Positions 41,543 to 56,833 of a stretch of 64,000 nt of DNA are shown here, piece after piece. Every line of letters starts with the position of its first letter. Positions within the stretch are counted from its first letter, which is position 1. A program made the translations under genes and the position numbers. The stretch covers positions 800,001-864,000 of the forward strand of contig CAVTHO010000008.1 of NCBI GenBank assembly GCA_963734545.1. The letters run 5' to 3'. This DNA is from an uncultured Spirochaetota bacterium (lineage in GTDB: Bacteria > Spirochaetota > Spirochaetia > SZUA-6 > Fen-1364). The notes beneath the pieces were generated by a model. The model worked only from the letters and a program-made list of their open reading frames with translations. It searched no databases and had not been told where the DNA came from.

Positions 41543-42187
41543 CTAGGGCACGATAAGCTTTGCCGCCACCATTCCCACGCCAAAGGGGATGATGATGTTG
41601 TCGAAATTGCCCGCGGGGATCCCTTCCAGGAATGTCGCGGCAGCGGCCACGATGAGCGCATCAGCAGGATTCGAGGTGATGCCGAACGTGACAATGAAGA
41701 CCGCGGCGAAGCATGCGAAGCTTCCGGCCACTGTCTTGCCGTTCAGGAACGGAATCCGCGGCCCCTTGACCACTGTGCCGACCAGGCTTGCGAAGCCGTC
41801 CCCAAAGGCGAGGGCGAAGATGGCGATGGAAGCAGCGGGAAGCGGATACAGCAGCAGGGAAAGCAGGGCACCCAGACCGAGGGTGACCGGACCCAGAACG
41901 AACCTGTCCATGTCCCTTTCACGGGCGGCAATGAGCGTCAGATCGCTCACCACGAGCACGGGGTTGCCCTGACGGCGCGAAGCCTCGGCAAGGGAATAGA
42001 AGATGGTTCCCATGGCCAGGAGGGCTATGGTTGCCGGAAGATTGACGGCGGCCAGAACAGGGACGAGGGCAATGAGGAGGTGAAGTGACTTCCTGACCAT
42101 CTCCCCTTGAAACCTGGCGGCAACTTGAGTACCTTGTGTCTGTCGGCTTTCGGCTTGTCGTAGCAATTCCGGTCTTTCCTGCATCAT
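41543..42187 (-). CDS. CTP-dependent polyprenol/phytol/diacylglycerol kinase (SEC59/VTE5/DGK1 family)
   Basis: RKSLH, LAFGDGFASLVG, GKTVAGS and FDNIIIP motifs. Confidence 0.88.
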   Translation of the reverse strand: MMQERPELLRQAESRQTQGTQVAARFQGEMVRKSLHLLIALVPVLAAVNLPATIALLAMGTIFYSLAEASRRQGNPVLVVSDLTLIAARERDMDRFVLGPVTLGLGALLSLLLYPLPAASIAIFALAFGDGFASLVGTVVKGPRIPFLNGKTVAGSFACFAAVFIVTFGITSNPADALIVAAAATFLEGIPAGNFDNIIIPFGVGMVAAKLIVP

Positions 42188-42227: not shown

Positions 42228-42483
42228 CAATGGGCAGAATGAGCTGCTTCTAATTGTTTATAGCTGAATCAATTGAAATGTCGATTTCTTCCCGGCTTCT
42301 GATCAGCACAGGTTTGTCTACTTTCTTGCACTTTAGGCTCTGATTTTCATATAGCGGAAGGGGCACTTTCCCGCAGTTCGCGCGGGTATTCGCGAGTCAG
42401 CGGTACCTTGGGCGGTCAGGCTGCTCAGGCGTCGCTGATTGACAGCAAACCCAGCGCCGATGTACTTTACCAGCAGATTTTCG

Positions 42484-42557
42484 GGGCGATTAACTCAGCG
42501 GCCCAGAGTGCTACCTTCACACGGTAGAAGTCACTGGTTCAAATCCAGTATCGCCCA
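42484..42557 (+). tRNA. tRNA-Val(CAC)
   Basis: GGGCGAT/ATCGCCC-A acceptor stem, CTACC-TTCACAC-GGTAG anticodon arm and GGTTCAAATCC; preceded by a TTGACA...TACTTT promoter; CCA not encoded. Confidence 0.97.
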
Positions 42558-42570
42558 TATTGAGCGAGCC

Positions 42571-44032
42571 ATGAGTGATCTGGGCGCGTACGATGCCATC
42601 GGGCTGGGCGAGCTTGTCCGCAGGCGAAAGGTTTCCCCCGCGGACCTCCTGGAGAACACGATCCGCCGCATCGAGGCGGTCAACCCGAGCCTGAACGCAG
42701 TCATCTGCACGCTCTGGGACCGGGCCCGGGCGGAAGTGAAGAAACGCACGGAAAAGGGTGCTGCCTCCGGCGAGCGCTTCCCCGGCGTTCCCTACCTGTT
42801 GAAGGACCTCCTGACGGACATGCAAGGCGCGCCATTCGCTGACGGGTCCCGGTTCGTGCATGGCCACGTGTCCGCAATCGACAGCGAGCTCGTCGAGCCG
42901 GACTCGCAAGAGCGGTCTTGTCATCGCCGGAAGGACGAACACGTCAGAGCTCGGCGTGCTCACCACCGCGGAGCCGCTTCTCTACGGCCCGGCGCGAAAC
43001 CCATGGAACCTCAGGTTGACAACAGGGGGATCCAGCGGCGGATCGGCAGCCGCCGTTGCGGCGGGCATGGTGCCGATGGCCCACGGCAACGACGGCGGCG
43101 GCTCCATCCGCATCCCCGCGTCCTGCTGCGGAGTGTTCGGCCTGAAGCCGACCCGGGGCCGCAACAGCCTGGGGCCGCTGTTCGGAGACTTCGCCCATGG
43201 CATCGTTTGTGAGCATGCCCTTACCCGCACGGTGCGGGACTCCGCGGCTCTGCTCGACGTCACCTCGGGCGCCGTCCCCGGTGATCCCTACGTTGCCCCG
43301 GCCCCCGCGCGGCCCTTCCTCGAGGAAGCGCGCCGAAGCCCCGGCCGGCTGAAAATCGCTTTCCTCTCTCGCGTGCCCGACGGCTGGAACGAGGAGACGG
43401 CGCTGCATCCGGATTGCGCGGCCGCCGTGCACGATGCCGCTCGGCTCTGCGAGTCCCTCGGCCATACGGTGGTGGAGGCAGACCCGGCCGCCCTTGCCTG
43501 GCCCGACCTGCCCCGGCGTTTCATCACGATTTTCTCATCCTTTGTCGGGCACTCGGTGGCGTACTGGGAGCGTACGCTGGGGAAGTCAGTGACACGGGAG
43601 GATCTGGAGCCGGTGACATGGGACTTGTACCAGGCGAGCCAGGGGATCACCAGTGCCGCCTACCTGGTAACGTGGGAGGAGCTGCAGCGCTTCTCACGCA
43701 AGGTGGCATGCTGGTACCGGGACGGCGGGTGGGATGTCCTCCTGTCCCCCACGATGCAGGTCCCTCCGACGGAACTCGGGTCCTTCGACCCGTCGCCCGG
43801 CGATCCGGGGAAATCGATCAGGCTCGCGCTGTCTTTCGTCGCTTTCACGCGCACGCAGAACATCACCGGGGATCCGGCCATGTCCGTCCCTCTCTACTGG
43901 AACAAGGACGAGGTGCCCATCGGGGTGCAGTTCGCGGCGCCCTTCGGCGCCGAGGCGACGCTCTTCCGGCTCGCCGCGCAACTGGAGAAGGCGCGGCCGT
44001 GGGCTGCGCGGAGGCCGCCCGTGCACTGCTGA
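42571..44032 (+). CDS. Amidase signature family enzyme (frameshift near 42898, probably a sequencing error)
   Basis: GVPYLLKDL in the first frame; [18 protein letters not shown] and [11 protein letters not shown] (Ser-cisSer-Lys triad) in the second frame. Confidence 0.88.
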
Positions 44033-44071
44033 GCCGCCCCTCGAGCAGCGCCGCATAGAATCCACGCTGCT

Positions 44072-44110
44072 CCTGCAATCCTTATTGCGGGCCGCAATCT
44101 GTATTGCAGG
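44072..44110. promoter_or_regulatory. Paired palindromic upstream activator sites (putative bEBP enhancer)
   Basis: GCAAT-N4-ATTGC at 44075 and again at 44094, together forming a larger inverted repeat, about 100-135 bp upstream of the sigma-54 start. Confidence 0.6.
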
Positions 44111-44155
44111 CCGCGCGTGTGTATCGAGCCCCACCTCTTACGCTAATTCTTTACA

Positions 44156-44199
44156 AATAAAGCAATTGACAAATGCCCGATGTTGGCATGCCCCTTGCT
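44156..44199 (+). promoter_or_regulatory. Sigma-54 promoter with IHF-like site
   Basis: TTGGCATGCCCCTTGCT (44183-44199) closely matches TGGCAC-N5-TTGC. AATAAAGCAATTG (44156-44168) is one mismatch from WATCARNNNNTTR. Confidence 0.75.
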
Positions 44200-44211
44200 T
44201 TGTCTCTTGTC

Positions 44212-45189
44212 ATGATGAAGAACATATTGAAGTTCCTGAAAGAGTACGTAAAGTCGATGCGGCTCTACTACTCATTCGTCACGGGCATCGCCGGCTGGAT
44301 CGGCATCACCTGCTATGAGTATTCCGCCGACCTTCCGACCTCGGGAGCCGGCGCAAGAAAACTCGTCATTCTGGTACTTGCGTTCCTGGGCTGGGGAATA
44401 AACCAGATCGTCAACGACTACCTCGGTCTGCCGGAGGACCGAATCAACGCACCCCGGCGGCCCATGGTCACAGGAGCCCTCGACCCTCGGAAAGCTCTGC
44501 TCCTCTCGTCGTTCCTCATGCTTGGTGCTGCTGTGGTCACCTGGCTTTTCCTGGAGCCCATTGCGATCGTGTTCCTCCTGGCAGGAGTCATGCTGAACGT
44601 GCTGTACGAAAAGGCGAAAGGATACGGCGTCTGGGGCAACATCGTTTTCGGCCTGATGATCTGCATGGTGACCCTGTACGGCTTTTTCGCGATGGGCCCC
44701 GTCCATGGATTCCGCTGGCTGTCCCGCATCCTGCCGGTGCTTGCTCTCCTTTGCACGATCAACGGGCTCATGACCCTGTACACGTATTTCAAGGACTACT
44801 CCGGGGATCGACGAACCGGGAAAAGAACATTGATTGTCATCTGGGGGCTGAAGAGATCGAGGATCTGCGCCTTCGCAGGGGCCTTTCTGCCGCTGTCGGT
44901 GTTCGTTCTCCTCATGGCTGCCAACAAGCTCCCCATCCACATTGGCGCCGAGTTCATGCTCCTCGGCTCGCTGGCCCTGGCCCTGCAGATCTGGACAGGA
45001 GCTCTCTTCTATTTGAAGCCCGTCGGAAAGGCGACGTACACATCCCTGGGAGTCAATTTCAAGGCGTGCGTATGCGCGGAAGCCGCCCTGCTGTCACTGT
45101 TCGACCCCCTGCTGGGCGTTCAACTCTTCGTCATTTCGTATTTCGCCGTGACCTTTCTCTTCTTTCTGCACAAAAACGCCAAGGCCTAG
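44212..45189 (+). CDS. UbiA-family intramembrane prenyl/alkyl transferase (DGGGP synthase/ChlG-like)
   Basis: NQIVNDYLGLPEDRINAPRRPMVTG, KGYGVWGN and FKDYSGDRRTGKRTL motifs; multi-TM. Confidence 0.88.
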   Translation: MMKNILKFLKEYVKSMRLYYSFVTGIAGWIGITCYEYSADLPTSGAGARKLVILVLAFLGWGINQIVNDYLGLPEDRINAPRRPMVTGALDPRKALLLSSFLMLGAAVVTWLFLEPIAIVFLLAGVMLNVLYEKAKGYGVWGNIVFGLMICMVTLYGFFAMGPVHGFRWLSRILPVLALLCTINGLMTLYTYFKDYSGDRRTGKRTLIVIWGLKRSRICAFAGAFLPLSVFVLLMAANKLPIHIGAEFMLLGSLALALQIWTGALFYLKPVGKATYTSLGVNFKACVCAEAALLSLFDPLLGVQLFVISYFAVTFLFFLHKNAKA

Positions 45190-45200
45190 AGGAGGAAGTG

Positions 45201-46418
45201 ATGATCGCGCTTCAGCCGGCACGGATCGGCGCAGTGGTACTGAAGAACAGGATAGTCCGTTCGGCAACGTACGAAGGTCGATGCGACGATCATGGATTTC
45301 CGGATGAAAGCTATCGAGACCTGTACGCGGAGCTGGCGCGCAACGAGGTCGGAGCGATGATCACGGGTTTCACCTATATCACGCGTTCCGGCAGAGCCAT
45401 GCAGCCCCGGCAAGCGGGGATCGAGAACGAGTCCAAGATTCGATTCTACCGGGAAGTCACCCGTGCGGTGCACAGCCATGACGGCAGGATATTCATGCAG
45501 CTTGCTCATACGGGGCGGCAGACCTCGCGCCAGGCAACGGGTGAAGAAGTTGCAGGAGCCAGCGGGAAACGGTCTCGCTACTTCAATCAGAAGCCCCGGT
45601 CACTTGAAGCGCGTGAAGTCCTTCGGATCGTGGAGCAGTTCGCCGACTCCGCGGTACGCGCCATGCAGGCCGGGTTCGACGGCATACAGCTCCATGCGGC
45701 ACATGGCTACCTCATTCACCAGTTCCTTTCACCCGCCATCAACACCAGGAAGGACTTGTTCGGCATCGACAGAGAATCTCGGCTGGGAATCCGCTTCCTC
45801 GACCTGATCATCGACTGCATCAGGCAGAAGTGCGGACCGCACTACCCCGTCCTGGTGAAGATCAGCGGCGGGGATGACGGCCGAAACGGCATGTCCGAGA
45901 CTCGGCTCGTACGACTGATTCACTTCCTCAACACCAAGAAGGTGGATGCGATCGAGATCAGTTGCGGCACCATGGAACGTCCACTGGATATCTTTCGCGG
46001 CGCCAGCATTCCGCTGGACGTGATACTGCGCTGCAACCCGCGATACAGGATTCCGGGCGCACTCCGGCGTTCTCTCTGGAAGACCCTGGCCGCGCCTTTC
46101 ATTCTGGCCCGAACAAGGCCGCTCACCCCCGCGTACAATCTCCACTTCGCCGAAACGGCCAAGAGGCATTCGGACGTCCCGATCATCAGCGTGGGCGGCT
46201 TCCGCAGCGGCGGCCAGATCGAGTCGTCCCTCGCCGACGGCAAGACGGACTTCATCGGTTTGTGCAGGCCCCTGCTGTGTGAGCCTGATTTCGTACAGAG
46301 ACTGAAGGAGAACAACTCCTACGTCTCGCGATGCGTCAGCTGCAACGTGTGCGCAGTTCTCTGCGACACGCGAAGTCCGACGCGATGTCATTTCGGGGAG
46401 GCAGTCCATGAGTATTGA
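45201..46418 (+). CDS. NADH:flavin oxidoreductase (Old Yellow Enzyme family) with C-terminal Cys cluster
   Basis: LKNRIVRSAT, QLAHTGR, AGFDGIQLHAAHGYL, SVGGFRS, RPLLCEPD and CVSCNVC..C motifs; GGAGG RBS. Confidence 0.9.
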   Translation: MIALQPARIGAVVLKNRIVRSATYEGRCDDHGFPDESYRDLYAELARNEVGAMITGFTYITRSGRAMQPRQAGIENESKIRFYREVTRAVHSHDGRIFMQLAHTGRQTSRQATGEEVAGASGKRSRYFNQKPRSLEAREVLRIVEQFADSAVRAMQAGFDGIQLHAAHGYLIHQFLSPAINTRKDLFGIDRESRLGIRFLDLIIDCIRQKCGPHYPVLVKISGGDDGRNGMSETRLVRLIHFLNTKKVDAIEISCGTMERPLDIFRGASIPLDVILRCNPRYRIPGALRRSLWKTLAAPFILARTRPLTPAYNLHFAETAKRHSDVPIISVGGFRSGGQIESSLADGKTDFIGLCRPLLCEPDFVQRLKENNSYVSRCVSCNVCAVLCDTRSPTRCHFGEAVHEY

Positions 46419-46659
46419 AGAGCGGGTCATATCAGTGGTGCGAGAAAATCTGGAGAACGGCAGAGAGATCCCCATCACCCCGGGGAGCGAGCTGGTGAAG
46501 GATCTGGAAATCGATTCCGTGAGCGCCCTGACGATCCTTTTCGGTCTGGAAAAGGAGTTCTCCGCTTCTCTGCACGAATCGATGTTCGGCAGCTGCAAGA
46601 CCGTTCACGACGTCATCGCCAGCCTCGAAAGACAGTTGCCGCAGCTGCGGGGAGGCTGA
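46408..46659 (+). CDS. Acyl carrier protein
   Basis: 83 aa acidic protein with DLEIDSV phosphopantetheine motif and LEKEF...TVHD. Confidence 0.9.
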   Translation: MSIEERVISVVRENLENGREIPITPGSELVKDLEIDSVSALTILFGLEKEFSASLHESMFGSCKTVHDVIASLERQLPQLRGG

Positions 46660-46660
46660 G

Positions 46661-47842
46661 ATGAGCACACCGGGTTATCTCGAGCAGCTCACGATCGACA
46701 AGAGCCTCGCGGAAACGCTGAACTTCAACCCGTATTATCAGGTCCTGCGATCCGGTCTGGGAGACCCGATCAGAGTCGGCGGCGAAGAGTTCATCAACCT
46801 CGCTTCGAACAACTATCTCGGCATCGGCAGCTCGGACAGAGTCAAGAAGGCCATGATCGACGGCGTGCAGCGATATGGCGTCTCCATGTGCGGCACTCCC
46901 ATTGCAACCGGCTATGTCGATGCGTTTGCCCGGCTCGAGCGGAGACTGGCCGGGTTCGTCGGTCTGAAGGATTCCACCGTATTCCCCTCCTGCTATCAGG
47001 CGAACCTCGGCGTCTTTTCCGCCATCGCGAGGAAGGAAGATGCGATCATCTTCGACCACTATGCGCATTCGTCCCTCGTGAGCGGCATCAGGGCGGTGGG
47101 ATGCAGGGCGCTGGCATTCCTTCACAACGATACTCGCCATCTGGAGAAGCTCCTGCAGAGCACATCGGGCTGCCGACAGACCTTTGTCGTGACGGAATCC
47201 GTGTTCTCAACTGAAGGGAGCATCGCGCCGTTTCGTGAGATCGTTCAATTGTGCGCCGCGCATGACGCCATTCCTGTCGTTGATGACTCCCACGGCATCG
47301 GCGTGCTCGGAAAGAACGGGCGAGGAATACTCGAGGAGCAGAATATCGAGAGCTACCCGGGCATCTACACGGCCTCCCTGGGCAAGGCGCTCGCAAATTT
47401 CGGAGGAATGGTCGCCGGCAGCGCGAACCTGATCGAATACCTGCGGTATGCCTGCCCCGCTCTCATCTACTCCACGGCCCTGCCGCCTTCGATCCTGCTG
47501 GGAATAGAGGCGGCCCTCGACATTGTCGAAGAGGAATTCACGGTGCGGGCCCGGCGGATGTGGAGATACAAGAACCTCGTATCCTCCCGGCTTCAGGAGC
47601 TCGGCTTTTCAGTCATTGCCGGCGAGGCGCCGATCACATCTGTGGCCTGCGGCGGGCTTGCAGACACGCTGCGCTTCGCCCGGGAGCTCTACTCGCAGAA
47701 GATTCTCGCCACGCCGTTTGTCCCCCCCTCTGTCCCGCCGAACATGGGCAGAGTCCGGCTCATCGCCGGGGCAGACCTGCAGGAGTCTTCCGTCCAGCGG
47801 GCTCTGGATGCCTTTTCCCGGATCGCAGAGGGACGATCATGA
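46661..47842 (+). CDS. PLP-dependent alpha-oxoamine synthase (serine palmitoyltransferase/AONS/KBL family)
   Basis: NPYY N-terminus, NLASNNYLG, SCYQAN, HSSL, FLHND, ESVFSTEG, DDSHGIG and SLGKA (PLP Lys). Confidence 0.9.
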   Translation: MSTPGYLEQLTIDKSLAETLNFNPYYQVLRSGLGDPIRVGGEEFINLASNNYLGIGSSDRVKKAMIDGVQRYGVSMCGTPIATGYVDAFARLERRLAGFVGLKDSTVFPSCYQANLGVFSAIARKEDAIIFDHYAHSSLVSGIRAVGCRALAFLHNDTRHLEKLLQSTSGCRQTFVVTESVFSTEGSIAPFREIVQLCAAHDAIPVVDDSHGIGVLGKNGRGILEEQNIESYPGIYTASLGKALANFGGMVAGSANLIEYLRYACPALIYSTALPPSILLGIEAALDIVEEEFTVRARRMWRYKNLVSSRLQELGFSVIAGEAPITSVACGGLADTLRFARELYSQKILATPFVPPSVPPNMGRVRLIAGADLQESSVQRALDAFSRIAEGRS

Positions 47843-48810
47843 AGTACTTCTTCGTCCTGAATCCGGGCTCCGCGGGAGGGAAGAGCGGACGTCGGTTTTC
47901 CTCTGTGCACGAAGCTGTCACGCGTCGGCGCGTCAGGTTCGATTTCGAGATTTGCCGCAGCCTCGACCACGCGTGCGACCTGTCGCGGATGGCAAACCGG
48001 TCAGGGTACGACGTCGTCGTTGCCGTCGGAGGAGACGGCACCATCAATCAGGTGCTCAACGGATTCTATGACGAAAGGGGCGGGCGGATCTCGGATGCCT
48101 CGCTGGGGGTCCTGCATACGGGAACGAGCCCTGATTTCTGCAAGAGCCACGCCATCCCGTGTCAACTCGAGAGCGCCCTGGAGCTGCTTTTCGGAGGATG
48201 CACGAAGAAGATCCCTGTCGGCAGGATCACGCTGGCACGGCAGTTCGAACCGGCATTCGATGGAAAACCCGTATCGGACGACGCTCTCTTCCACACGCGG
48301 TACTTCGCGTGCTGCGCCAATATCGGCCTGGGAGCATCTGTGGCCCGCTGCGCAAACAACGGAATCAGGAAACGGCTCGGAGACTCTCCGGGCACTTTCA
48401 TTGCCATCCTGAGAAGCCTGGCCCGGTTCGAACAATCCTCCTTCACGATCGTCCGTGATGGCAAAGCCCAGACCATACCCCGGCTCGTCAACCTGGCAAT
48501 CGGAAAGACCTTCCACGTTGCCTCCGGCATCAAAGTCAGGAGCGAGCTGCGCGAGCATGATCGGCGCTTCTACTGCCTTGCTCTCCACGATCTGCGGATG
48601 GTCGATGTCGTGCCCTGCCTCGTGTCGCTCTACAGCGGGAGGACGATCCAGGGCACGGGATACGCGGAGCTCGGGTACTGCTCGTCGATCCAGGTCCTGG
48701 GAAACAGCCGGTATCCCGAAGTGGAATACGACGGAGACCCCCAGGGATTTCTCCCCTGCCGCATCGAGACGGCTGCTGACGAGCTCTCCGTGATCGGAAA
48801 GCCATCATGA
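47839..48810 (+). CDS. Diacylglycerol/sphingosine kinase family protein (YegS/DgkB-like)
   Basis: LNPGSAGG, AVGGDGTINQVLNG, GTSPDF and C-terminal YDGD motifs. Confidence 0.88.
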   Translation: MKYFFVLNPGSAGGKSGRRFSSVHEAVTRRRVRFDFEICRSLDHACDLSRMANRSGYDVVVAVGGDGTINQVLNGFYDERGGRISDASLGVLHTGTSPDFCKSHAIPCQLESALELLFGGCTKKIPVGRITLARQFEPAFDGKPVSDDALFHTRYFACCANIGLGASVARCANNGIRKRLGDSPGTFIAILRSLARFEQSSFTIVRDGKAQTIPRLVNLAIGKTFHVASGIKVRSELREHDRRFYCLALHDLRMVDVVPCLVSLYSGRTIQGTGYAELGYCSSIQVLGNSRYPEVEYDGDPQGFLPCRIETAADELSVIGKPS

Positions 48811-49835
48811 GCGTCGAGAAGAGCCTCATCGAGTTGATCGACCACATTCTCCCGAAGGACCCGACGTGCCTGACCAAATGCTTCGAAGCAGATGCCCAGG
48901 TCATCAGGCTGGGCACCGGGACATTCGTCTTTTCGACTGATGGATTCTCGCACGAGGACCTGCTGCAGGAGAAAGATCCCTTCCGCCTTGGCTGGAACGT
49001 CGCGGTGGGCGCAATCAGCGACATCCTTGCCGTCGGCGGCGTGCCTCTGCTCTATGCGCACACGATGAGCATCGAGCCCCGGTGGAACGCGGCCTTCATT
49101 GAGAGATTTTCCAGAGGGGTGGCCAGGGCGCTGGAGTTGTCCGGGATCACCTTCATCGGGGGTGATCTCGGAAGGTCGGGAGAATGGAAGTATGCCGCCT
49201 CGGTGATCGGCACGCTGGCGGGAGAGCCGGTGCTCAGAAAGGGCGCATCCGAAGGAGACAGCATCTACCTTTCCGGCGAGGTCGGCGCCGGCAACCTGGA
49301 AGCGGCCATGAGCCTGTACGCCCGCAGGGTGGGATGTGCCGCGGCGGCGGGCAGGATCTGCGGCAGGTTCCACCTCCGCCTCTCGGAAGCCAGGCTCATG
49401 AAAAAGTACGCGACATCCGCAATCGACACCAGCGACGGCGTCTTTGACGCCCTGAGCACGTTGTCTGAGATAAATGGTACCGGCTACGTCGTGGAGAATC
49501 TGCCGTACCTCCGGCGGGGAGTCCTGCTCGCGAAGCTCCTCGCGGTGCCCCCATCCCTCCTCTTCTTCGGCGGATGCGGCGAGTACGAGCTTCTCTTCAC
49601 GGTCAAGAGAGAAGAGGAGGCGGCGTTCCTGTCGGAGGCGCGGGAAAAAGGGCTGAGGTTCTACCGGCTGGGCGGAATAACCGGCGGGAAATCTCCGCAA
49701 AAGATTCTGCGGGAAAACGGCGCGCGCATCGATCTGTCACAGGTGAGCATGTCGGCCCGGGACTTCGGCACTGCGGAGGAGTACCTGGAGAAACTGCAGG
49801 CGATGGTGGAGGGACTGAAATGCCAAGGGTCGTGA
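48807..49835 (+). CDS. Thiamine-monophosphate kinase (ThiL)-like kinase, PurM/AIRS fold
   Basis: FSTD, ISDILAVGG, IGGD, RKGASEGD, IDTSDG and GEYELLFT motifs. Confidence 0.82.
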   Translation: MSVEKSLIELIDHILPKDPTCLTKCFEADAQVIRLGTGTFVFSTDGFSHEDLLQEKDPFRLGWNVAVGAISDILAVGGVPLLYAHTMSIEPRWNAAFIERFSRGVARALELSGITFIGGDLGRSGEWKYAASVIGTLAGEPVLRKGASEGDSIYLSGEVGAGNLEAAMSLYARRVGCAAAAGRICGRFHLRLSEARLMKKYATSAIDTSDGVFDALSTLSEINGTGYVVENLPYLRRGVLLAKLLAVPPSLLFFGGCGEYELLFTVKREEEAAFLSEAREKGLRFYRLGGITGGKSPQKILRENGARIDLSQVSMSARDFGTAEEYLEKLQAMVEGLKCQGS

Positions 49836-51088
49836 TCACGGGCATCGGAATCCTGACCTCGCTCGGAGTCGGGAAGGATGAGTTCATGCGGAACCTCTTT
49901 CTGCAGAAAACTCCTCTGGCAGCCATACCCGCCTCTTTTGAGAAGCATTATTCCTTTACATCCAGGTTCTATGTTCCGTTCTCGGTTCCCGCCCTGAACG
50001 ACTATGGCATCCCGTCGCATCATCAATGCTTCATGCAGGACGCTCACAAGATCGCCGTTATTGCCGCGAAACTGGCTCTCTCGGACGCGGGGTTCTTGAT
50101 TTCCAGTGACGGGCGATCCTTCAGAATCGAAGAGCTCGCGGATTGCGGCGTCTGCATCGGGATGGGCTTCCTGGGGATGCGCGAGGGCTTCTCATCATAC
50201 CTCGCCCACCTGGCCGGCGAGGACGGGCCGCCGTTTTCCTGGATCTCGAAAAGCGTCCGGTTCAACAGGCTGATCATCCCGGTCATGATGCCCAATTCAG
50301 TGTCGGCATGGATTTCGATCCTGTTTCATCTCAATGGAAGCTCCTGCACCGTGAATGCCTCCTGCGCGTCGGGAACGCTGGCCATCGGCGAGGCATTCAG
50401 GAGGATAAAGGACGGATACGAGACGGTGGCCCTGGCAGGCGGGGTGGAATGCCTGAAAGACGAATGCGGCGGCGTGATGCGCGGGTTCGATGTTCTCGGA
50501 GCGCTCACCCGGGCGGAAGACGGCAGACCGTTGCCCTTTTCAGGCCGGAGAAGCGGCTTTCTTTTTTCGGAGGGCGGCGGATGCATCCTCGTCCTGGAAG
50601 AGCTCGCGCATGCGCGAAGTCGCGGCGCTTCGATATATGCTGAAATCGCCGATTTCAGGTCAAACAGCGACGCCTGCAGCATTCTCCAGATGGAGGGGAG
50701 CGGGGCGCAGATCAGGAGACTCCTGAAGGACCTGAAAGGCGATCGGACCATCGACTATCTGAACTCCCACGGCACGGGAACGGCGGCAAACGATTCGATC
50801 GAGGCGCGAGCCATTCACGAGGTCTTCGGCAGCAGAGACGCGCAGCCGTTCATCGACGCGACAAAAGGGATACTTGGCCACACCGTGGGAGCCAGCGGAG
50901 CCATAGAGGCCGCCGTGGTGGCGCTGTCCATCAGGGAATCCAGGATTCATGGCAGTGCGGTACCTGACCCCATCCCTGATCTCAATCTCGCTTCCTGCAA
51001 TCAGAGCTTGCCCATCACGTACGCCATCTCGACATCCTACGGGTTCGGAGGGCACAACGCCGGACTCCTCTTTCGGAGGTATGGATGA
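49820..51088 (+). CDS. Beta-ketoacyl-ACP synthase (FabF-like)
   Basis: RVVITGIG, ASCASG (Cys), NSHGTGT (His), KGILGHT (His) and SYGFGGHN motifs. Confidence 0.92.
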   Translation: MPRVVITGIGILTSLGVGKDEFMRNLFLQKTPLAAIPASFEKHYSFTSRFYVPFSVPALNDYGIPSHHQCFMQDAHKIAVIAAKLALSDAGFLISSDGRSFRIEELADCGVCIGMGFLGMREGFSSYLAHLAGEDGPPFSWISKSVRFNRLIIPVMMPNSVSAWISILFHLNGSSCTVNASCASGTLAIGEAFRRIKDGYETVALAGGVECLKDECGGVMRGFDVLGALTRAEDGRPLPFSGRRSGFLFSEGGGCILVLEELAHARSRGASIYAEIADFRSNSDACSILQMEGSGAQIRRLLKDLKGDRTIDYLNSHGTGTAANDSIEARAIHEVFGSRDAQPFIDATKGILGHTVGASGAIEAAVVALSIRESRIHGSAVPDPIPDLNLASCNQSLPITYAISTSYGFGGHNAGLLFRRYG

Positions 51089-52139
51089 TGGACCGTGTCA
51101 TGATCACCGGCGCCACCGGTTTCATCGGGAGTCACATCACCCGCGCGTTCATCGGGCATGGCGTGAAGGTGGGCTGTCTCGTGCGGCGATGCAGCGATCT
51201 CGCGAATCTCGAAGGGCTGAACGTCGAGCTGCGGTATGGGGACATTCGGGACAGAGAAAGCCTGGTCAGCGCTTTCAAGGACTATGACGCGGTCATTCAC
51301 AATGCCGCCCTCGTTGCCGACTGGGGGCCATACAGGGATTTCTACCAGACCAACGTGCGGGGCACGCTCAATGTCATGGACGGCATGCCTGCAGAACGGT
51401 ATTGAGAAGATCATCATGGCAGGCTCCAACGCCGTGTATGGTGAGGAAGACTGCAGGACATCAAAGAACGAGGATTCACCTCTCAATCCCCATTACCGCT
51501 ATTTTCTCGGGAGAATTGTTCCCTGCAAGCTCAACTATTACCGGGACACCAAGACCCTGGCAACGGTCCTCGCTTCGGACTACGCCCGGAAGTTCGGGCT
51601 GAACCTCACGATTCTGGATCCCGGTGTGGGTGTACGGCGAGCGGGAGCTGCATACCGGCTTCTACGAGTACCTTCGCTCGGTACAAGGCGGGATGATCGT
51701 CACGCCGGGATGCAGACGCAACAAGTTCCATGCCATTTATGCGGGAGATCTGGCAGAGGCGTATTACTGTGCGTTCCGCAAGGGAGTGAGCGGTGTCAGA
51801 AGGTTTATCATCGGCAATGAGCGAGCCGAGCGAATGTCCACAATCTACGGGCTTCTCTGCCGTGAAGCTCGGCTCAAGCCGCCGCGAAACCTCCCCAAGT
51901 TCATTTTCTACCCGGTCGGGCTTCTCATGGAAATCCTCTGGAGCGCGCTGGGTTTCGCGGCGCCGCCGCTGCTGACCCGGGGAAGGGTGAACCTCTTCTA
52001 CGACAGCATCACGTACTCCGTGGAAAAGGCGAAAAAGATGCTCGGCTTTGCGGGCACGTACTCCCTGGAGGAGGGCATCGCAAGGACCGTGTCCTGGTAT
52101 CGAACAAATCACCTGCTGCAGGGGAGGGAAAAACCATGA
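51085..52139 (+). CDS. Extended SDR / NAD-dependent epimerase-dehydratase (3-beta-HSD/CerR-like); two +1 frameshifts near 51380 and 51622
   Basis: TGATGFIG, GDIRD, HNAA and NVRGT in frame 1; SNAVYG and YRDTK (YxxxK) in frame 2; VWVYG...DLAEA...KAKKMLGF in frame 3. Confidence 0.85.
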
Positions 52140-53437
52140 TCGATCCTCGAAGCGTATCCGGTCTCGCCAAGCACGTTTTCAATGCAAAATTGAAGCTTGT
52201 CATTTTCTTTCGCTTCATGCGCCCTCTGATCACAGGGGAGCTGTCTCCGGCCCGGTTCATCCTGCTCCTGAGGAGGCTGCTGTATTTCTTCTCTCGACTC
52301 CAGAGCAACAAGTTCGTTCGGATCGGGAAACAGACGCGAGTCGATCTCTATGTCCCGTTTTTTCCCACGAAGGCATTCTTCGCTGCCTGCCGCAAGTTCA
52401 CGACCTTCGGTGAAAAGCTGCCCTGCACGACCGCCCTCATTTCAGTCACTTCGGCCTGCCGCTTCAACTGCAGCCACTGCTACCAGAAGATGGACCGTGG
52501 AAAGGACGTGGATATCGGACGGCTGGTTCAGGTGGCGGCAAGGCTGCAGGAGAAGGGCATTGCTTTCTTCAACATCGAAGGTGGTGAACCGTTTCTCGTG
52601 TTCGACCGTCTCAGGAGAGTATGCGCGGCAATCGATGACCGGTCGGAGGTATGGGTGAACTCCACCGGCGACGGAATGACTTTGGAACGGCTCCGGGAGC
52701 TGAAAACGCTGAATCTCACCGCCGTCATGTTCTCTCTGCATTCGCCTGTCCCTGATGATTTCAACGCTTTTCTGGGATCTGAGAGAGCCTGGGCCACGAT
52801 GCTGAACGGGGTCCATCTCTGCCATCAGGCCGAGGTGCCCGTGGCGTTCAATATGTGCCTGCAGAGAGAAGGCTTCTCTGACGGGACTTTCGAGCGGCTC
52901 ATGGACAAGGCCAGGGAGCTCGGGGCGTCGATCATCCAGCTCATCAAGCCGAAGCCCTCGGGAGGATGGCTGCGCTGCGGCGTGGAGGAGTTCCGGCCGC
53001 AGGACGTCATGCGCATGAAAACCCTGGTCAGTGACTACAACACCAGGCGCGAGTACGGAGATTTTCCCTCGATCTCAGCACAGATGCTCGAGGAAGATCC
53101 GTCGCGCTTCGGCTGCACGGCGGGAGGAACCGATCGGTTCTATATCAACGCGAAAGGGGATCTGCAGCCCTGTGAGTTTCTGAACCTGTCTTTCGGGAAT
53201 ATCGCCACGGACGACTTCGACACAATCTATGACACCATGAGAAGCTGCTTCGAGAGGCCCGGCGTGAACTGGCTGTGCGAGAAATGCGCCGGCAGCGTCC
53301 TCCAGCGTGTCACGAGCCATGACCTGCACTCCCTTCCGCTCGACCCAGGGCTCTCCAGGGAAGTCTACGGGTCCTGGGATCGGGGCAGTCCGACGGAGCT
53401 CTATGACACCATCGAGAACAGGTTGAGCCCCCGTTGA
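52136..53437 (+). CDS. Radical SAM enzyme with SPASM/twitch-like C-terminus
   Basis: CRFNCSHC (CxxxCxxC), GGEP and GCTAG...INAKGDLQPCEF, plus further Cys residues. Confidence 0.9.
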   Translation: MIDPRSVSGLAKHVFNAKLKLVIFFRFMRPLITGELSPARFILLLRRLLYFFSRLQSNKFVRIGKQTRVDLYVPFFPTKAFFAACRKFTTFGEKLPCTTALISVTSACRFNCSHCYQKMDRGKDVDIGRLVQVAARLQEKGIAFFNIEGGEPFLVFDRLRRVCAAIDDRSEVWVNSTGDGMTLERLRELKTLNLTAVMFSLHSPVPDDFNAFLGSERAWATMLNGVHLCHQAEVPVAFNMCLQREGFSDGTFERLMDKARELGASIIQLIKPKPSGGWLRCGVEEFRPQDVMRMKTLVSDYNTRREYGDFPSISAQMLEEDPSRFGCTAGGTDRFYINAKGDLQPCEFLNLSFGNIATDDFDTIYDTMRSCFERPGVNWLCEKCAGSVLQRVTSHDLHSLPLDPGLSREVYGSWDRGSPTELYDTIENRLSPR

Positions 53438-53480
53438 TTGAAGCTCTCCATGCGGGCCGTTCTCCTGAAGTCAAGAGTCG

Positions 53481-56400
53481 TCAGCTGGAGCTGGCGAACG
53501 CCGAAACGAGGCCACCCACGTAATCCTTGACCGGCGGAGAGCTCCACATGCCGGATTCCTGACCGCGGCGGAGCAGCTCGAGGATCTCCGGCCCTTCTTC
53601 CACGAAGATGCGGAGGTATCCCTCAGGCTGCGCCAGCCCTACAGCTTCGCTCAGAGCATCAAGGGCATCCCCCTGGGCGGAAGCCGAGGCCCTTGCTTTC
53701 GCCTGGAGGACGAGGATCTCGATGAGGGGACCAATGCGTCCTCCCGACCGCGCAGAGAAGGCAAGGTCATCGAGCAGGCGCGAGATGTCGGCCGAGCCCG
53801 GGTCCGTCACACCGGCAGCCAGGCGAACCCGGGCCAGGCAGATGAGCTCCACCTCCCGATTCACAGGACTCGCCGCTTTCCCCGGCTTGTACTCGCGCAT
53901 CCACGCCTCGGCAGCTGCGCTGTCCCCGCACGCGAGATACGTCTTCACCCTGTCGGCCTCGAAAATCGGCAGGAGCGTGGCATGGATGAGGGCGCGCCGC
54001 GGAAGCGATTGTACTTTCGCAAGCTCCTCCTGCGCCCGCGCGGCCTGTCCACGCGATCGGAGCACGCGCGCCAGCGACTGGCGGGTGAGATACACGTCGG
54101 AGGGCAGGCCCCACGCCTCCACGTCCTTCACCGCTTTTTCGGCAATCCTCAGCGCGTCATCAAGCTCGCCTCGTTCCCTCTTGAGCTCAGCCATCAGGGC
54201 ATACACTTTGGCGATCGGCCCGCTCCCGCGCGCGTGGCGCCGCCCCGCCAGGGCATCGAACTCCTCCAGCAGGGCCAGCGCATCGCGGAGCCGGCCCTGA
54301 AGGCGGCGGAGATGCGCAAACTCGTACACCGCGCTGGCGATCGACCAGATGCTTCCGGCGGCATGGCTCGCCCGCAGAAACTCCTTGCAGCCCTCCTCGG
54401 CTTTTTCCAGCTCTCCCTGGTAGCGATAGGATTTTTCCAGGATATAGAGGATCAAAGTCCTGGGCATATCTTCCTTCGGGGGCAGGAGCCGGTCAGCCCT
54501 GCCGGCGAGCTCGACGGCCTCCGCGGTCTCCCCTGCCATGTCGGCGAGAACGGCCCGGATGATTGCCACGGTTCCCTCGAGGGTCCGGATGCTGTCGGAA
54601 TCCTTCCCGGCTTCGGAAATACTCTTCTCCGTCCGATCCAGCAGAGCCTCGGCCTCCTGCCGTCGTCCCGCCCATGCCAGGGTCCAGGCAGCGGCCATGC
54701 AGTGTCCGGGGCGTTTCTCCATCACCTCCGAGGGGATCTCCCTGCACCAGCGCTGCAACTGGCTCAGCGCACCCTGGCCGATGATATCGAAGAACCTTGC
54801 CTCGATGAGGTCCGCGGCTTTCTCGTGGGCCTCTGCCGCCAGGTATTCCTGGATCGCCTCGACGAGCTCCCCCTGTCCGGCAAACCAGTCGCCCGCCCTG
54901 ATGTGGAGTGCATGAATCTTCTCGGGAAGCCGCTCGAGCTCCAGCTTGTGCCGCAGCAGGTCGGCGAAGAGGTGGTGGTAGCGAAACCAATTCCTCTGCT
55001 CGTCCAGGGGGACGAGGAACAGGTTCATCCGCTCCAATTGCTGCAGGGTCTCCTGGCATCCACGCCGTCCTGTCACCGCTTCGCACAACCCGGCGCTCAT
55101 CCTGGTCATGATCGAAGTATCGAGGAGAAGCTGCTTGAGGTCTTCGTCCAGACGGGAAAACACCTCCTCGGCAAGATATTCCAGGATGTAGCGTTGAGTT
55201 CCGCTGAAAGACGCGATGAAGCCGTCCACGTCCTCCCGTCCCTGAAGGGAGAGAGCCGCCATCTGCAGCCCCGCAACCCAGCCTTCGGTCCGCTTCTCCA
55301 GCACGGCGACCTGGGCCGGGGAAAGGGACAGGGACATTGCCCGATCGAAGAATTGCTCGGCCTCGGCGGCGGTGAAACGCAGATCTTCCGCGCGAATTTC
55401 CGCAACGCGGTCCTGCGAGCGCAGGCGCGCGAGCGGAAAGGGCGGATCGGCACGGCTTGCAATGAAGATGCCGAGCGACGCAGGCCTGTGGTCGATCAGG
55501 AACCGCACCGCTGCATGGACCTCCAGCGTGTGGATGAACTGGTAGTCGTCAAGGACCAGGGCGATGCCCTTCCCCTGCTCCTCGATGGCGTTGATCAGGG
55601 CGGTCATGACGAGCTCTGCCGGGGCGGGCGGCGTGGCCCGCAGCATCTGGCTCGCCTCCTCCCCCACGCCCTCCCCGGTCCTCATGATCGAAGCTGCGAG
55701 GTGGAGCAGGAAGCGGGGGAGATCATTGTCTCCCTCATCGAGTGAGAGCCAGGCGACAGGCATCCCGGCCCGCGCAGCCAATTCAGAAAGGATTGTCGTC
55801 TTGCCAAAACCAGCCGGAGCGGATACGACCACCAGGCCGCGCGCCAGGCCCTGCTCGAGGAGGCGGATGAGCCTGCCTCTTCTGACCATTCCATCGCGAA
55901 CGGGTGGAACCGAAAGCTTGGTGCCGAGCAGGCCCGGGAAAAGATCTGCGCCCTGCGCGGGCGGCTGCACCGCTCGCGGCTCTTCGATCCGGTGAGCTGC
56001 GCATTCGACTCTCCGGGCCCGGCTCGCGGTGTGTCCTTCGTTTTCTCCCGCGGTCCGATCTGACGGGACAGGATCTGGTTGTAGAGGTCCCGGGTCCCCT
56101 TTTCCGGTTCCTGGCCAAACTCTCCCCGCAGCGCCTCGGCAAACTCCTCGTACTGCCTGATGGCGGCGCTTCGCTGACCCGAAAGCGCAAGCGTCTGTAT
56201 CAGCAGGGCCTGGGCCTGCTCGTGCATCCTGTCCTGCGCAAGCCAGCGCTTCACCGACTGGAGAGCATCTTCCCAGCGCTCGGCCGCGGCGTGACAACGG
56301 GCAGATCTCTCGAGAAGCCACCCGAGCTCGGCTCTCAGGCTCTCCCTTTCCGCCACCTGCCAGTCGTCGAACCCAGGGCAGCCAGGGAGGTTGAAGCCTT

Positions 56401-56833
56401 CGAGGAACTCGCCCTGGAAGAGCCGTATCGCATTCACCACCCGCTCGAGGCACTCAGGGCACCGCTCCCCTGATTCGTGAGGATGGGCCTTTACATCCGC
56501 GACAAGCCGCCGCGCGGCACGCACGTCGATCCACAGGTCCGCGTCCGACCGCACGCTTATCCTGTCCCGCTCTGGCTCCAGCCAATCCCCGGGAATGCTC
56601 GCGTGGAGCGAGGCGAGGCTCCGCCGCAGGTTCGCAGGAGCGCGATTCTGGTCGAATTCCGGCCAGAAGAGGGCCGCCAGTTTCTCCCGCGATTGGGGAT
56701 GCTCGTTCAGACTGAGATAGGCAAGAAGGGCGGTGGTCTTTCGCGTTTCGAGCCGCACGTGGCTGCCGGAGAGCTCGACTCGAGGGTGACCGAGCCAGTA
56801 GAGCCCCAGGCGCGGCCCGCTTCCCTGCTTCAC
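53481..56833 (-). CDS. SARP (wHTH+BTAD) fused to a MalT-type STAND ATPase/TPR regulator (frameshift near 55950-56030)
   Basis: ALLAYL...SREKLAALFWPE...FLEGF...FDDW BTAD part in one frame; TKLSVPP, APAGFGKTT, WLSLDEGDND, LVLDDY, TEGW and FRYHHLF in the other; no C-terminal LuxR HTH. Confidence 0.82.

What the first reader, a model, noticed from the sequence alone, without database searches (positions are those of the whole stretch)
47839..49835. Kinase + ThiL-like kinase + UbiA: a possible lipid-diphosphate activation and alkyl-transfer relay
Seen: a GGDGT lipid kinase directly coupled to a ThiL-fold kinase, in an operon headed by UbiA, with no thiamine genes and no prenyl-diphosphate synthase. 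Known: DgkB/sphingosine kinases make lipid monophosphates, ThiL converts a monophosphate to a diphosphate, and UbiA enzymes use Mg-bound lipid diphosphates as alkyl donors. Phytol salvage (VTE5, VTE6, then a UbiA enzyme) follows the same logic with other folds. Inference: ROH -> ROP -> ROPP -> UbiA-catalysed transfer of a non-isoprenoid chain, giving an ether or C-/N-alkyl bond. That would be a new role for ThiL and a new donor class for UbiA.
Basis: inference. Interest (0 to 1): 0.82.

Follow-up and report, generated by a model that had tools for sequence, protein, structure and literature searches.

The report
Orphan amino-lipid operon with ThiL paralog
The lipid kinase and the thiamine-kinase look-alike are real neighbours inside a nine-gene operon that many anaerobic bacteria share and that probably makes an undescribed phosphorylated amino-alcohol lipid, but whether the two kinases feed the UbiA enzyme a new kind of donor is still an open guess.

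Summary
Observation confirmed. 47839-48810 encodes a DAGK_cat lipid kinase (GGDGT) and 48807-49835 a ThiL-like AIRS protein, start and stop overlapping.

The block is inherited as a unit. 19 of 20 metagenome loci with enough flank carry it. All 5 genomes found through UbiA alone carry it. A distant variant keeps the same six core functions using unrelated SDR and rSAM genes.

The ThiL-like protein is a dedicated paralog. It scores 127 bits against a 184-bit thiL cut-off. It keeps the phosphotransfer residues but lacks residues invariant in canonical ThiL. This genome has no thiE or thiC, but has thiamine pyrophosphokinase.

Interpretation partly supported. A two-kinase step to a lipid diphosphate is plausible. 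That this diphosphate is UbiA's non-isoprenoid donor is untested and chemically awkward unless it is allylic. The genome has prenyl-diphosphate synthases elsewhere, and UbiA's only PDB sequence match is DGGGP synthase, whose acceptor is a lipid phosphate. I favour UbiA prenylating the phosphorylated base. No paper describing the operon was found.

The parts
44173..45189 (+). UbiA-family membrane transferase, first gene of the operon
   Evidence: PF01040 91.7 bits. Only PDB sequence hit is M. jannaschii DGGGP synthase 6m31, 5e-10. First Asp motif reads N-D-Y-L-G-L-P-E-D, with Gly at the canonical middle Asp in 41 of 41 orthologues.
45201..46418 (+). OYE/FadH-type FMN oxidoreductase with a C-terminal Cys-rich motif; accessory in the family
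   Evidence: PF00724 180.5 bits. Present in 18 of 20 full loci.
46408..46659 (+). Acyl carrier protein, 83 aa
   Evidence: PF00550 26.1 bits, cut-off 20.8. A D-S-[FLV] motif family in 28 of 48 long sequences (47 loci plus the window).
46661..47842 (+). Alpha-oxoamine synthase (BioF/KBL/SPT family, PLP-dependent)
   Evidence: PF00155 143.4 bits. bioF model 311.6, KBL 279.7, SPT 247.6 bits, all below their cut-offs. PDB: KBL 1fc4 2e-58, SPT 3e-49.
47839..48810 (+). DAGK_cat-type soluble lipid kinase (GGDGT)
   Evidence: PF00781 78.1 bits and PF19279 28 bits. PDB: DgkB 2qv7 7.5e-10, YegS, weak SphK1. Directly upstream of the ThiL-like gene in 53 of 60 loci where it was seen.
48807..49835 (+). ThiL-like AIRS-superfamily ATP enzyme, a pathway-dedicated paralog
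   Evidence: thiL model 127.4 bits against a 184.15 cut-off. AF2 pLDDT 90.3; Foldseek finds AaThiL 3c9t (TMt 0.80) and SelD 2yye. Residue comparison.
49820..51088 (+). FabF-like beta-ketoacyl synthase; accessory in the family
   Evidence: PF00109 101.9 and PF02801 77.7 bits. ATG at 49820. Present in 16 of 20 full loci.
51085..52139 (+). Epimerase-fold (extended) SDR reductase, read in three frames in this assembly
   Evidence: The intact orthologue in L005 has PF01370 103.4 and 3Beta_HSD 88.9 bits. Three-frame reading shown. Contigs of 3 runs lack one base at 51381 and one at 51620 or 51623.
52136..53437 (+). Radical SAM enzyme with SPASM/twitch-type C-terminal domain
   Evidence: PF04055 59.2 and PF13186 25.2 bits. 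CxxxCxxC at C108/C112/C115 is invariant. AF2 pLDDT 93.5; best fold match SkfB 6efn, TMq 0.54.

Best explanation
The two genes belong to a self-contained, horizontally mobile nine-gene operon of anaerobes. It most likely builds an undescribed phosphorylated amino-alcohol (sphingoid-like) lipid.

Inferred order of steps:
1. An acyl chain on the operon's own ACP, lengthened by the KAS where present, is condensed with an amino acid by the alpha-oxoamine synthase.
2. The epimerase-fold SDR reduces the ketone.
3. The DAGK-type kinase phosphorylates a hydroxyl of this base.
4. The ThiL-like paralog, which is not a thiamine enzyme, uses ATP to add a second phosphate to that phosphomonoester.
5. The UbiA enzyme attaches a second hydrophobic chain to the phosphorylated base. 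The chain is most likely an isoprenoid from the cell's own prenyl-diphosphate pool. UbiA thus stands where ceramide synthase stands in ordinary sphingolipid synthesis, and works as DGGGP synthase works on a lipid glycerol-phosphate.
6. The radical SAM and OYE enzymes tailor the chains without oxygen.

Shown here: gene content, co-inheritance, family assignments, paralogy of the ThiL-like protein, and retention of its phosphotransfer residues. Inferred: every substrate, the order of steps and the donor of UbiA.
For: Block inheritance:
- Same order in L005 and L019.
- Among 20 metagenome loci with at least 5.5 kb upstream and 9.5 kb downstream of the ThiL-like gene: UbiA 19, AONS 20, DAGK 19, SDR 19, rSAM 19, OYE 18, KAS 16.
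- The one exception (L095, like L089) has ThiL-like, AONS, DAGK_cat, UbiA, a classic adh_short SDR and another rSAM type. That is the same six functions with two non-orthologous replacements.
- UbiA-anchored searches found 5 new genomes, and 5 of 5 carry the kinase and the ThiL-like gene beside UbiA.

Paralogy of the ThiL-like protein:
- G025 has both a canonical thiL (297 bits) and the cluster copy (149 bits).
- 12 of 20 same-genus genomes have a canonical thiL but none has the cluster copy.
- G000 lacks thiE and thiC and has thiamine pyrophosphokinase at 112.8 bits against a 76.4 cut-off.

ThiL-type chemistry:
- D29, D72, R144 and D207-x-S209-D210-G211 are invariant in 28 subfamily members and shared with 10 canonical ThiL.
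- This genome's SelD has D-V-T-G-F at that place.
- Canonical invariants H53/F54, K64, N69 and the C-terminal G.DHF are replaced. New invariant aromatics appear: W63 (nearly invariant, 93%), W93, W127 and Y326.

Prenyl donor and phosphate-bearing acceptor:
- DGGGP synthase is the only PDB sequence hit.
- UbiA enzymes cluster by acceptor, and non-allylic diphosphates are not donors (PMC9385802, passages).
- Four PF00348 matches at three other places in G000.

Sphingoid logic:
- Bacterial ceramide and dihydrosphingosine kinases of the GGDG family exist (bioRxiv 10.1101/2023.05.01.538943, passages).
- None of the nine genes matched an acyltransferase family, so another enzyme must add any second chain.
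Against: - No enzyme activity was tested.
- The first Asp-rich motif of UbiA lacks the canonical middle Asp in 41 of 41 orthologues and in the variant cluster. Diphosphate handling may therefore differ from ordinary prenyltransferases.
- No prenyl synthase was found in 87 related loci with the two queries used.
- The amino acid used by the oxoamine synthase is unknown. KBL scores above SPT, so 'sphingoid' is an analogy.
- In the 5 other cluster genomes tested, thiE is present and the cluster copy is the only thiL-model hit at E<=1e-25. A side role as TMP kinase is therefore not excluded there. However, 4 of the 5 have thiamine pyrophosphokinase, and 147 of 200 genomes of that class also lack any such hit.
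Confidence: 0.4

Rival explanations
1. The amino-alcohol made by the operon is phosphorylated by the DAGK-type kinase and pyrophosphorylated by the ThiL-like kinase. This non-isoprenoid lipid diphosphate is then the electrophilic donor that UbiA transfers to an unknown acceptor, giving an ether, C-alkyl or N-alkyl bond.
For: - It gives the ThiL-like enzyme a clear purpose.
- Both kinases and UbiA are never separated in the loci examined.
- The ThiL-type phosphate-acceptor motif is kept.
- No prenyl synthase in the window or 87 related loci.
- The first Asp motif of UbiA is altered in 41 of 41 orthologues.
- The UbiA fold can use a non-prenyl diphosphate. The decaprenyl-phosphate phosphoribosyltransferase model NF008977 is among the UbiA-type models matched; that its donor is PRPP is established knowledge, recalled.
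- An OYE/BaiCD-type flavoenzyme and a radical SAM enzyme are present that could in principle make the alcohol allylic. This is inference only.
Against: - Saturated diphosphates do not support the carbocation chemistry of this family (PMC9385802).
- OYE is missing from 2 of 20 full loci and from the variant cluster.
- No acceptor is evident.
- Prenyl-diphosphate synthases exist elsewhere in the genome.
- The nearest relative uses a lipid phosphate as acceptor.
Confidence: 0.2
2. The ThiL-like protein does PurM/PurL/HypE-type chemistry. It phosphorylates a carbonyl or amide oxygen with ATP to drive a cyclisation or dehydration of the amino-ketone intermediate, and makes no diphosphate.
For: - Same superfamily. 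Foldseek scores for SelD, HypE and PurM are close to those for ThiL.
- The ThiL-like gene is followed by KAS (or by SDR where KAS is absent) in both common gene orders, and one ThiL-like::KAS fusion exists.
Against: - By sequence, thiL is far the best model: 127 bits against 50 for selD and 28 for hypE.
- The D-x-S-D-G motif shared with ThiL is kept, whereas SelD of this genome has D-V-T-G-F.
Confidence: 0.12
3. Prenol salvage. The two kinases turn a free isoprenoid alcohol into its diphosphate, as VTE5 and VTE6 do for phytol. This feeds UbiA, while the amino-alcohol is the acceptor.
For: - Same two-kinase-then-UbiA logic as phytol salvage. I saw only search listings and abstract openings of PMC4737080 and PMC5854125. 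Geranylgeraniol and geranylgeranyl-phosphate kinases are named in PMC9385802.
- No prenyl synthase in any related locus.
Against: - I know of no DAGK_cat kinase that acts on prenols (recalled, not searched).
- It leaves the amino-alcohol without the phosphate that a DGGGP-synthase-like acceptor site would suggest.
- The genome makes prenyl diphosphates de novo.
Confidence: 0.08
4. It is simply the organism's thiamine-phosphate kinase, which happens to lie in a lipid operon.
For: - It is the best thiL-model hit in G000.
- It is the only thiL-model hit at E<=1e-25 in 5 other cluster genomes, all of which have thiE.
Against: - G000 has no thiE or thiC, and has thiamine pyrophosphokinase.
- G025 has a canonical thiL as well.
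- It scores below the curated cut-off, and residues invariant in canonical ThiL are replaced.
- It travels with the operon across phyla.
- It was not found in the 20 same-genus genomes, 12 of which have a canonical thiL.
Confidence: 0.05

Closest known systems
Bacterial sphingolipid and ceramide-phosphate synthesis (Spt, dedicated ACP, CerR-type reductase, bCerS, ceramide kinase CpgB; P. gingivalis dihydrosphingosine kinase)
   Same: An alpha-oxoamine synthase with its own ACP, an epimerase-fold reductase and a GGDG lipid kinase sit in one cluster. CpgB and dhSphK1 are described in bioRxiv 10.1101/2023.05.01.538943 (passages read).
   Different: - None of the nine genes matched an acyltransferase family.
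- The oxoamine synthase is below every SPT cut-off, and KBL and BioF score higher.
- It adds UbiA, a ThiL-like enzyme, a radical SAM enzyme, OYE and KAS.
- It occurs in anaerobic Bacillota, Spirochaetes, Omnitrophota and Latescibacterota, by the source names.
Thiamine-phosphate kinase ThiL (TIGR01379; PDB 3c9t, 5dd7)
   Same: Same fold. Same metal and phosphate residues: D29, D72, R144 and D-x-S-D-G.
   Different: 127 bits against a 184 cut-off. H53/F54, K64, N69 and the C-terminal G.DHF of canonical ThiL are replaced. No TMP source in this genome.
Archaeal DGGGP synthase (UbiA superfamily, PDB 6m31)
   Same: It is the only solved structure found by sequence. Motifs 2 and 3 are kept. Its acceptor is a single-chain lipid carrying a phosphate next to the reacting hydroxyl.
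   Different: 72 bits against a 296 cut-off of the equivalog model. The middle Asp of motif 1 (Mj D66) is Gly in all 41 orthologues.
Phytol salvage VTE5, VTE6 and then a UbiA-type transferase; archaeal geranylgeraniol and geranylgeranyl-phosphate kinases
   Same: Two successive phosphorylations of a lipid alcohol, feeding a UbiA-family enzyme.
   Different: The kinases here are of the DAGK_cat and AIRS folds. That VTE5 and VTE6 are unrelated membrane proteins is recalled, not tested here. The alcohol here is probably made by the operon itself.

Membership tests
ThiL, thiamine-phosphate kinase (TIGR01379) | Two-domain AIRS/PurM fold | tested here: met
   PF00586 59.2 bits. AF2 pLDDT 90.3. Foldseek AaThiL 3c9t E 2.9e-24, TMt 0.80.
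ThiL, thiamine-phosphate kinase (TIGR01379) | Score above the curated equivalog cut-off | tested here: not met
   127.4 bits against 184.15. Canonical ThiL of relatives score 266-315 bits.
ThiL, thiamine-phosphate kinase (TIGR01379) | Metal and phosphoryl-transfer residues, including D-x-S-D-G and the Arg | tested here: met
   D29, D72, R144, D207, S209, D210 and G211 are invariant in 28 subfamily sequences and shared with 10 canonical ThiL.
ThiL, thiamine-phosphate kinase (TIGR01379) | Other residues invariant in canonical ThiL (G-D-D, V-E-G-V-H-F, K64, N69, C-terminal G.DHF) | tested here: not met
   All are replaced in the subfamily. Which of them touch TMP could not be mapped, because the structural paper was not held.
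ThiL, thiamine-phosphate kinase (TIGR01379) | A thiamine pathway that supplies TMP | tested here: not met
   No thiE and no thiC in G000, which is 89% complete. Thiamine pyrophosphokinase is present. thiE is present in 5 other cluster genomes.
ThiL, thiamine-phosphate kinase (TIGR01379) | TMP kinase activity | not testable with these tools
   Needs an enzyme assay or complementation.
DAGK_cat soluble lipid kinases (DgkB, YegS, sphingosine and ceramide kinases) | Catalytic domain with a GGDG(T) motif plus a YegS_C-type second domain | tested here: met
   PF00781 78.1 and PF19279 28 bits. G64-G65-D66-G67-T68 is invariant in 37 orthologues.
DAGK_cat soluble lipid kinases (DgkB, YegS, sphingosine and ceramide kinases) | Membership of a named equivalog (YegS, DgkB, MamU) | tested here: not met
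   The best is PRK13057 at 72.6 bits against a 274 cut-off.
UbiA superfamily | Pfam domain over the cut-off; motif 2 (Y..K) and motif 3 (D-x3-D) | tested here: met
   91.7 bits against 34.2. Y145, K149 and K-D-Y-x-G-D are conserved.
UbiA superfamily | First motif N-D-x-x-D-x-x-x-D | tested here: not met
   N-D-[YF]-L-G-x-x-E-D: Gly replaces the middle Asp in 41 of 41 orthologues. The variant cluster has Gln there.
DGGGP synthase (PRK12882/12883) | Score above the equivalog cut-off | tested here: not met
   72.4 and 70.2 bits against cut-offs of 296 and 353.
Bacterial sphingolipid core (Spt, ACP, CerR, bCerS) | Serine palmitoyltransferase equivalog | tested here: not met
   The best SPT model scores 247.6 bits against 640. 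bioF (311.6) and KBL (279.7) score higher.
Bacterial sphingolipid core (Spt, ACP, CerR, bCerS) | Dedicated ACP and a reductase in the cluster | tested here: met
   ACP at 46408-46659. Epimerase-fold SDR. Orthology to CerR was not tested.
Bacterial sphingolipid core (Spt, ACP, CerR, bCerS) | Ceramide synthase (N-acyltransferase) | tested here: not met
   None of the nine operon genes matched an acyltransferase family in Pfam. The rest of the genome was not searched for bCerS.

The most novel reading that the evidence does not exclude
The ThiL-like protein is the first lipid-phosphate kinase of the ThiL family. It turns the kinase product into an amino-alcohol diphosphate, possibly made allylic by the OYE or radical SAM enzyme. 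A UbiA enzyme with a rebuilt first Asp motif then uses this diphosphate as a non-isoprenoid alkyl donor. That would be a new way for anaerobes to make ether or N-alkyl lipids.
Probability: 0.2. Interest if true: 0.85.

Novelty: new variant of a known kind. Interest (0 to 1): 0.62.

Why it matters
The operon is widespread. A profile of the ThiL-like subfamily finds 337 representatives of 50%-identity clusters at E<=1e-30. Source names place members in Spirochaetes, Bacillota (including cultured Desulfosporosinus), Omnitrophota, Latescibacterota and Proteobacteria.

It is self-contained, and I found no paper that describes it. Its product would be a new lipid class of anoxic sediments, wetlands and peat. 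It would also give the ThiL family a second, non-vitamin function. Either a lipid pyrophosphate head group or a new donor class for UbiA enzymes would interest lipid biochemists and organic geochemists who look for the sources of unusual ether and amino lipids.

It also matters for annotation. Public sources label these proteins 'thiamine-monophosphate kinase', which is probably wrong and could mislead vitamin-auxotrophy predictions.

Tried and rejected
- Complex prediction of the kinase with the ThiL-like protein gave no answer (score 0.00, controls not folded). It is no evidence either way.
- The look-up of sequencing runs listed no RNA holder, so expression is unknown.
- The promoter and terminator scan of 43900-53700 was not above shuffles.
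- The fold search of the radical SAM model gave only generic SPASM/twitch relatives, best SkfB at TMq 0.54. No function was inferred from it.
- The search for longer fused forms of the ThiL-like protein found one protein, a ThiL-like::KAS fusion on a 2.6-kb contig, and no kinase fusion. The tool itself calls such a blank weak evidence.
- The structural paper on A. aeolicus ThiL was not held, so TMP-contact residues could not be mapped. The A. baumannii paper (PMC6416309, passages) names none.
- Five literature searches for the gene combination or for ThiL homologues outside thiamine found nothing relevant. Subscription journals and supplements are not covered.
- The first tblastn for prenyl synthases used a wrong ORF and was repeated correctly.
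- I rejected the idea that the SDR is a pseudogene.
- I considered that the flanking 214-aa membrane protein (41543-42187) is a prenol kinase. It hit no family and it is not conserved beside the operon.


Full report
WHAT IS THERE. On the + strand of the window lie nine tightly packed genes:
- UbiA, 44173-45189.
- An OYE/FadH-type FMN oxidoreductase with a C-terminal Cys motif, 45201-46418.
- An 83-aa acyl carrier protein, 46408-46659.
- An alpha-oxoamine synthase of the BioF/KBL/SPT family, 46661-47842.
- A DAGK_cat lipid kinase with GGDGT, 47839-48810.
- A ThiL-like AIRS protein, 48807-49835.
- A FabF-like ketoacyl synthase, 49820-51088.
- An epimerase-fold SDR, 51085-52139.
- A radical SAM enzyme with a SPASM/twitch domain, 52136-53437.

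Four junctions are ATGA overlaps: AONS/kinase, kinase/ThiL-like, KAS/SDR and SDR/rSAM. The OYE/ACP and ThiL-like/KAS pairs also overlap. The ACP was missed.

STATE OF THE ASSEMBLY. The SDR reads in three frames. Contigs from three public runs, 95-99% alike (X1, X3, X6; X2 barely covers the region), lack one base at 51381 and one at 51620 or 51623. Those are exactly the two shift points. The orthologue is intact in L005. The shifts are therefore most likely single-base insertion errors of this assembly. The amidase upstream is split in the same way. I treat the operon as intact.

IS IT MORE THAN CHANCE? Yes.
- The whole block recurs in the same order in a Clostridia MAG (L005) and in a genome of the same order (G025, L019), at 45-64% protein identity.
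- A metagenome scan with an alignment of 28 subfamily members returned 80 loci. I required at least 5.5 kb upstream and 9.5 kb downstream of the ThiL-like gene, which kept 20 of the 82 loci. At tblastn E<=1e-15 these held AONS in 20, UbiA, kinase, SDR and rSAM in 19 each, OYE in 18 and KAS in 16.
- Two gene orders occur, which are circular permutations of two four-to-five-gene modules. The kinase is directly upstream of the ThiL-like gene in 53 of 60 loci where it was seen.
- The one 'exception', L095 (and the short L089), is a distant variant. It has ThiL-like (38% identical), an oxoamine synthase, a DAGK_cat kinase, UbiA, a classic adh_short SDR and a different radical SAM type. The six core functions persist through two non-orthologous replacements. 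This is the strongest sign that they work together.
- Searches anchored on UbiA, not on ThiL, found orthologues in 3 of 401 genomes of the phylum and 4 of 399 of the class of L005's genome. All 5 new genomes carry the kinase and the ThiL-like gene beside UbiA.
- Flanking genes are not conserved, apart from an XRE-type regulator in 11 loci.
- The block is sporadic. None of 20 same-genus genomes has it, and its G+C (0.58-0.61) is a little below the flanks (0.63-0.66). This fits horizontal transfer.

THE THIL-LIKE PROTEIN.
- Fold. The AF2 model has pLDDT 90.3. Foldseek gives A. aeolicus ThiL at TMt 0.80, with SelD, HypE and PurM close behind.
- Sequence. thiL is by far the best model at 127 bits, against selD 50 and hypE 28. 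It still lies below the curated 184-bit cut-off, whereas canonical ThiL of relatives score 266-315 bits.
- Residues shared. I compared 28 subfamily members with 10 canonical ThiL taken from related genomes. The phosphotransfer core is shared: D29, E50, D72, G77-G78, G118-G119, R144, D207-x-S209-D210-G211 and Y260-E261-L262.
- Residues changed. Residues invariant in canonical ThiL are replaced: the first Asp of G-D-D, H53/F54, K64, N69 and the C-terminal G.DHF. New invariant or nearly invariant residues appear, many of them aromatic: W63, N64, Y83, H85, W93, F116, W127, N163 and Y326. This genome's SelD has D-V-T-G-F where ThiL and the subfamily have D-x-S-D-G.
- Reading. I take this as the same chemistry on a different substrate. 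That the changed residues line the substrate site is inference, because the structural paper was not held.

THIAMINE CONTEXT.
- In G000 (89% complete) the cluster copy is the best thiL-model hit and the next is SelD. There is no thiE and no thiC. Thiamine pyrophosphokinase is present at 112.8 bits against a 76.4 cut-off. This organism seems to salvage thiamine without ever making TMP.
- G025 has a canonical thiL (297 bits) as well as the cluster copy (149 bits). 12 of 20 same-genus genomes have a canonical thiL and no cluster copy.
- Against my reading: in the 5 other cluster genomes tested, thiE is present and the cluster copy is the only thiL-model hit at E<=1e-25. However, 4 of these 5 have thiamine pyrophosphokinase. 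In the class of three of them, 147 of 200 genomes have no such hit either, and none passes the cut-off. Absence of thiL is therefore the norm there. A side activity on TMP is not excluded.

WHAT THE OPERON PROBABLY DOES.
- An oxoamine synthase with its own ACP, an epimerase-fold reductase and a GGDG lipid kinase are the logic of bacterial sphingoid-base and ceramide-phosphate synthesis. Bacterial ceramide and dihydrosphingosine kinases of this family are known (bioRxiv 10.1101/2023.05.01.538943, passages read).
- The resemblance is functional only. The synthase is below all SPT cut-offs and KBL and BioF score higher. No ceramide synthase is among the nine genes.
- The only phosphomonoester the operon can make is the kinase product. 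A ThiL-type enzyme phosphorylates a phosphomonoester. A two-kinase route to a lipid diphosphate is thus the most economical reading of these two genes. I put it at about 0.5.

THE UBIA STEP.
- The absence of a prenyl-diphosphate synthase is true of the operon, and of 87 related loci plus the window with the two queries used. But the genome has four PF00348 matches in three places elsewhere.
- The only solved structure found by sequence is DGGGP synthase. That enzyme takes a prenyl diphosphate as donor and a single-chain lipid phosphate as acceptor.
- A review (PMC9385802, passages read) reports two relevant points. UbiA enzymes cluster by acceptor rather than donor. A saturated diphosphate such as phytanyl diphosphate is no donor, because the carbocation is not stabilised.
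- I therefore favour UbiA prenylating the phosphorylated base, in the place of the missing N-acyltransferase.
- The weakness of this reading is that it leaves the second phosphate without a clear purpose.
It reads N-D-[YF]-L-G-x-x-E-D, with Gly at the canonical middle Asp in 41 of 41 orthologues and Gln in the variant. The UbiA fold is also known to accept one non-prenyl diphosphate, PRPP. The family model is matched; the donor is recalled.
- If the OYE or radical SAM enzyme made the alcohol allylic, the chemical objection would fall. That is speculation, and OYE is missing from 2 of 20 full loci and from the variant.

THE REMAINING ENZYMES. The radical SAM model (pLDDT 93.5) resembles only generic SPASM/twitch enzymes. 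A large BcrAD/BadFG-type activase is inserted in or next to the block in 3 loci. KAS and OYE are accessory. I can assign them no specific step.

NOVELTY. Five full-text searches found no description of this gene set or of a ThiL homologue outside thiamine metabolism. Lists of lipid-kinase or SPT homologues in supplements of the sphingolipid papers could mention the family. Earlier notes of this scan describe the same operon in other genomes as an orphan amino-lipid operon. They agree with my reading but are not independent evidence.

VERDICT. The operon is real, conserved and undescribed. The ThiL paralog is a genuine functional novelty. The specific relay to a non-isoprenoid UbiA donor remains a minority hypothesis, at about 0.2.

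Noticed in passing
window 46408-46659 (+): An 83-aa acyl carrier protein between the OYE and oxoamine-synthase genes, overlapping the end of OYE. A matching small ORF family is in 28 of 48 long sequences (47 loci plus the window).
   Followed up: yes
window 51381 and 51620-51623: Two single extra bases split the SDR gene into three frames. Contigs of three public runs lack these bases, so they look like assembly errors.
   Followed up: yes
window 42439-44032 (+): An amidase is split into two overlapping ORFs (Pfam positions 1-85 and 83-444). This is another single frameshift, just upstream of the operon.
   Followed up: partly
window 53481-56453 (-): A 990-aa MalT-like regulator (AAA plus TPR_MalT, 188 bits) converges on the end of the operon. 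No LuxR-type HTH was reported by Pfam. It is not conserved beside the operon elsewhere.
   Followed up: partly
window 41543-42187 (-): A 214-aa multi-pass membrane protein with no Pfam or NCBIfam match, about 2 kb upstream of UbiA. It contains a G-D-G-x-A...G-K-T-x-x-G stretch that reminded me of dolichol or phytol kinases. This was not confirmed.
   Followed up: partly
L040 8306-12721, L041 3944-8359, L068 9872-14146: A 1,424-1,471-aa BcrAD/BadFG ATPase with DUF2229 ('CoA enzyme activase') is inserted between the ThiL-like gene and KAS, or after the operon, in 3 loci. It may be an ATP-driven electron donor for the flavin or radical enzymes.
   Followed up: partly
L095 10001-16426 and L089: A distant variant operon: ThiL-like, oxoamine synthase, DAGK_cat kinase, UbiA, classic adh_short SDR, and a radical SAM enzyme with a Radical_SAM_N2 domain. 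It has no ACP, KAS or OYE.
   Followed up: partly
G000 contigs C7 and C3 (outside the window): The genome has thiamine pyrophosphokinase (C7:775148-775741) but no thiE, thiC or canonical thiL, so it is probably a thiamine auxotroph. SelD at C3:165271-165900 has an in-frame stop just upstream of the open frame, where a selenocysteine codon would be expected.
   Followed up: partly
P0121 (781 aa, public protein): A single ThiL-like::KAS fusion protein on a 2.6-kb contig. It may be a real fusion or a read-through of the overlapping genes.
   Followed up: partly
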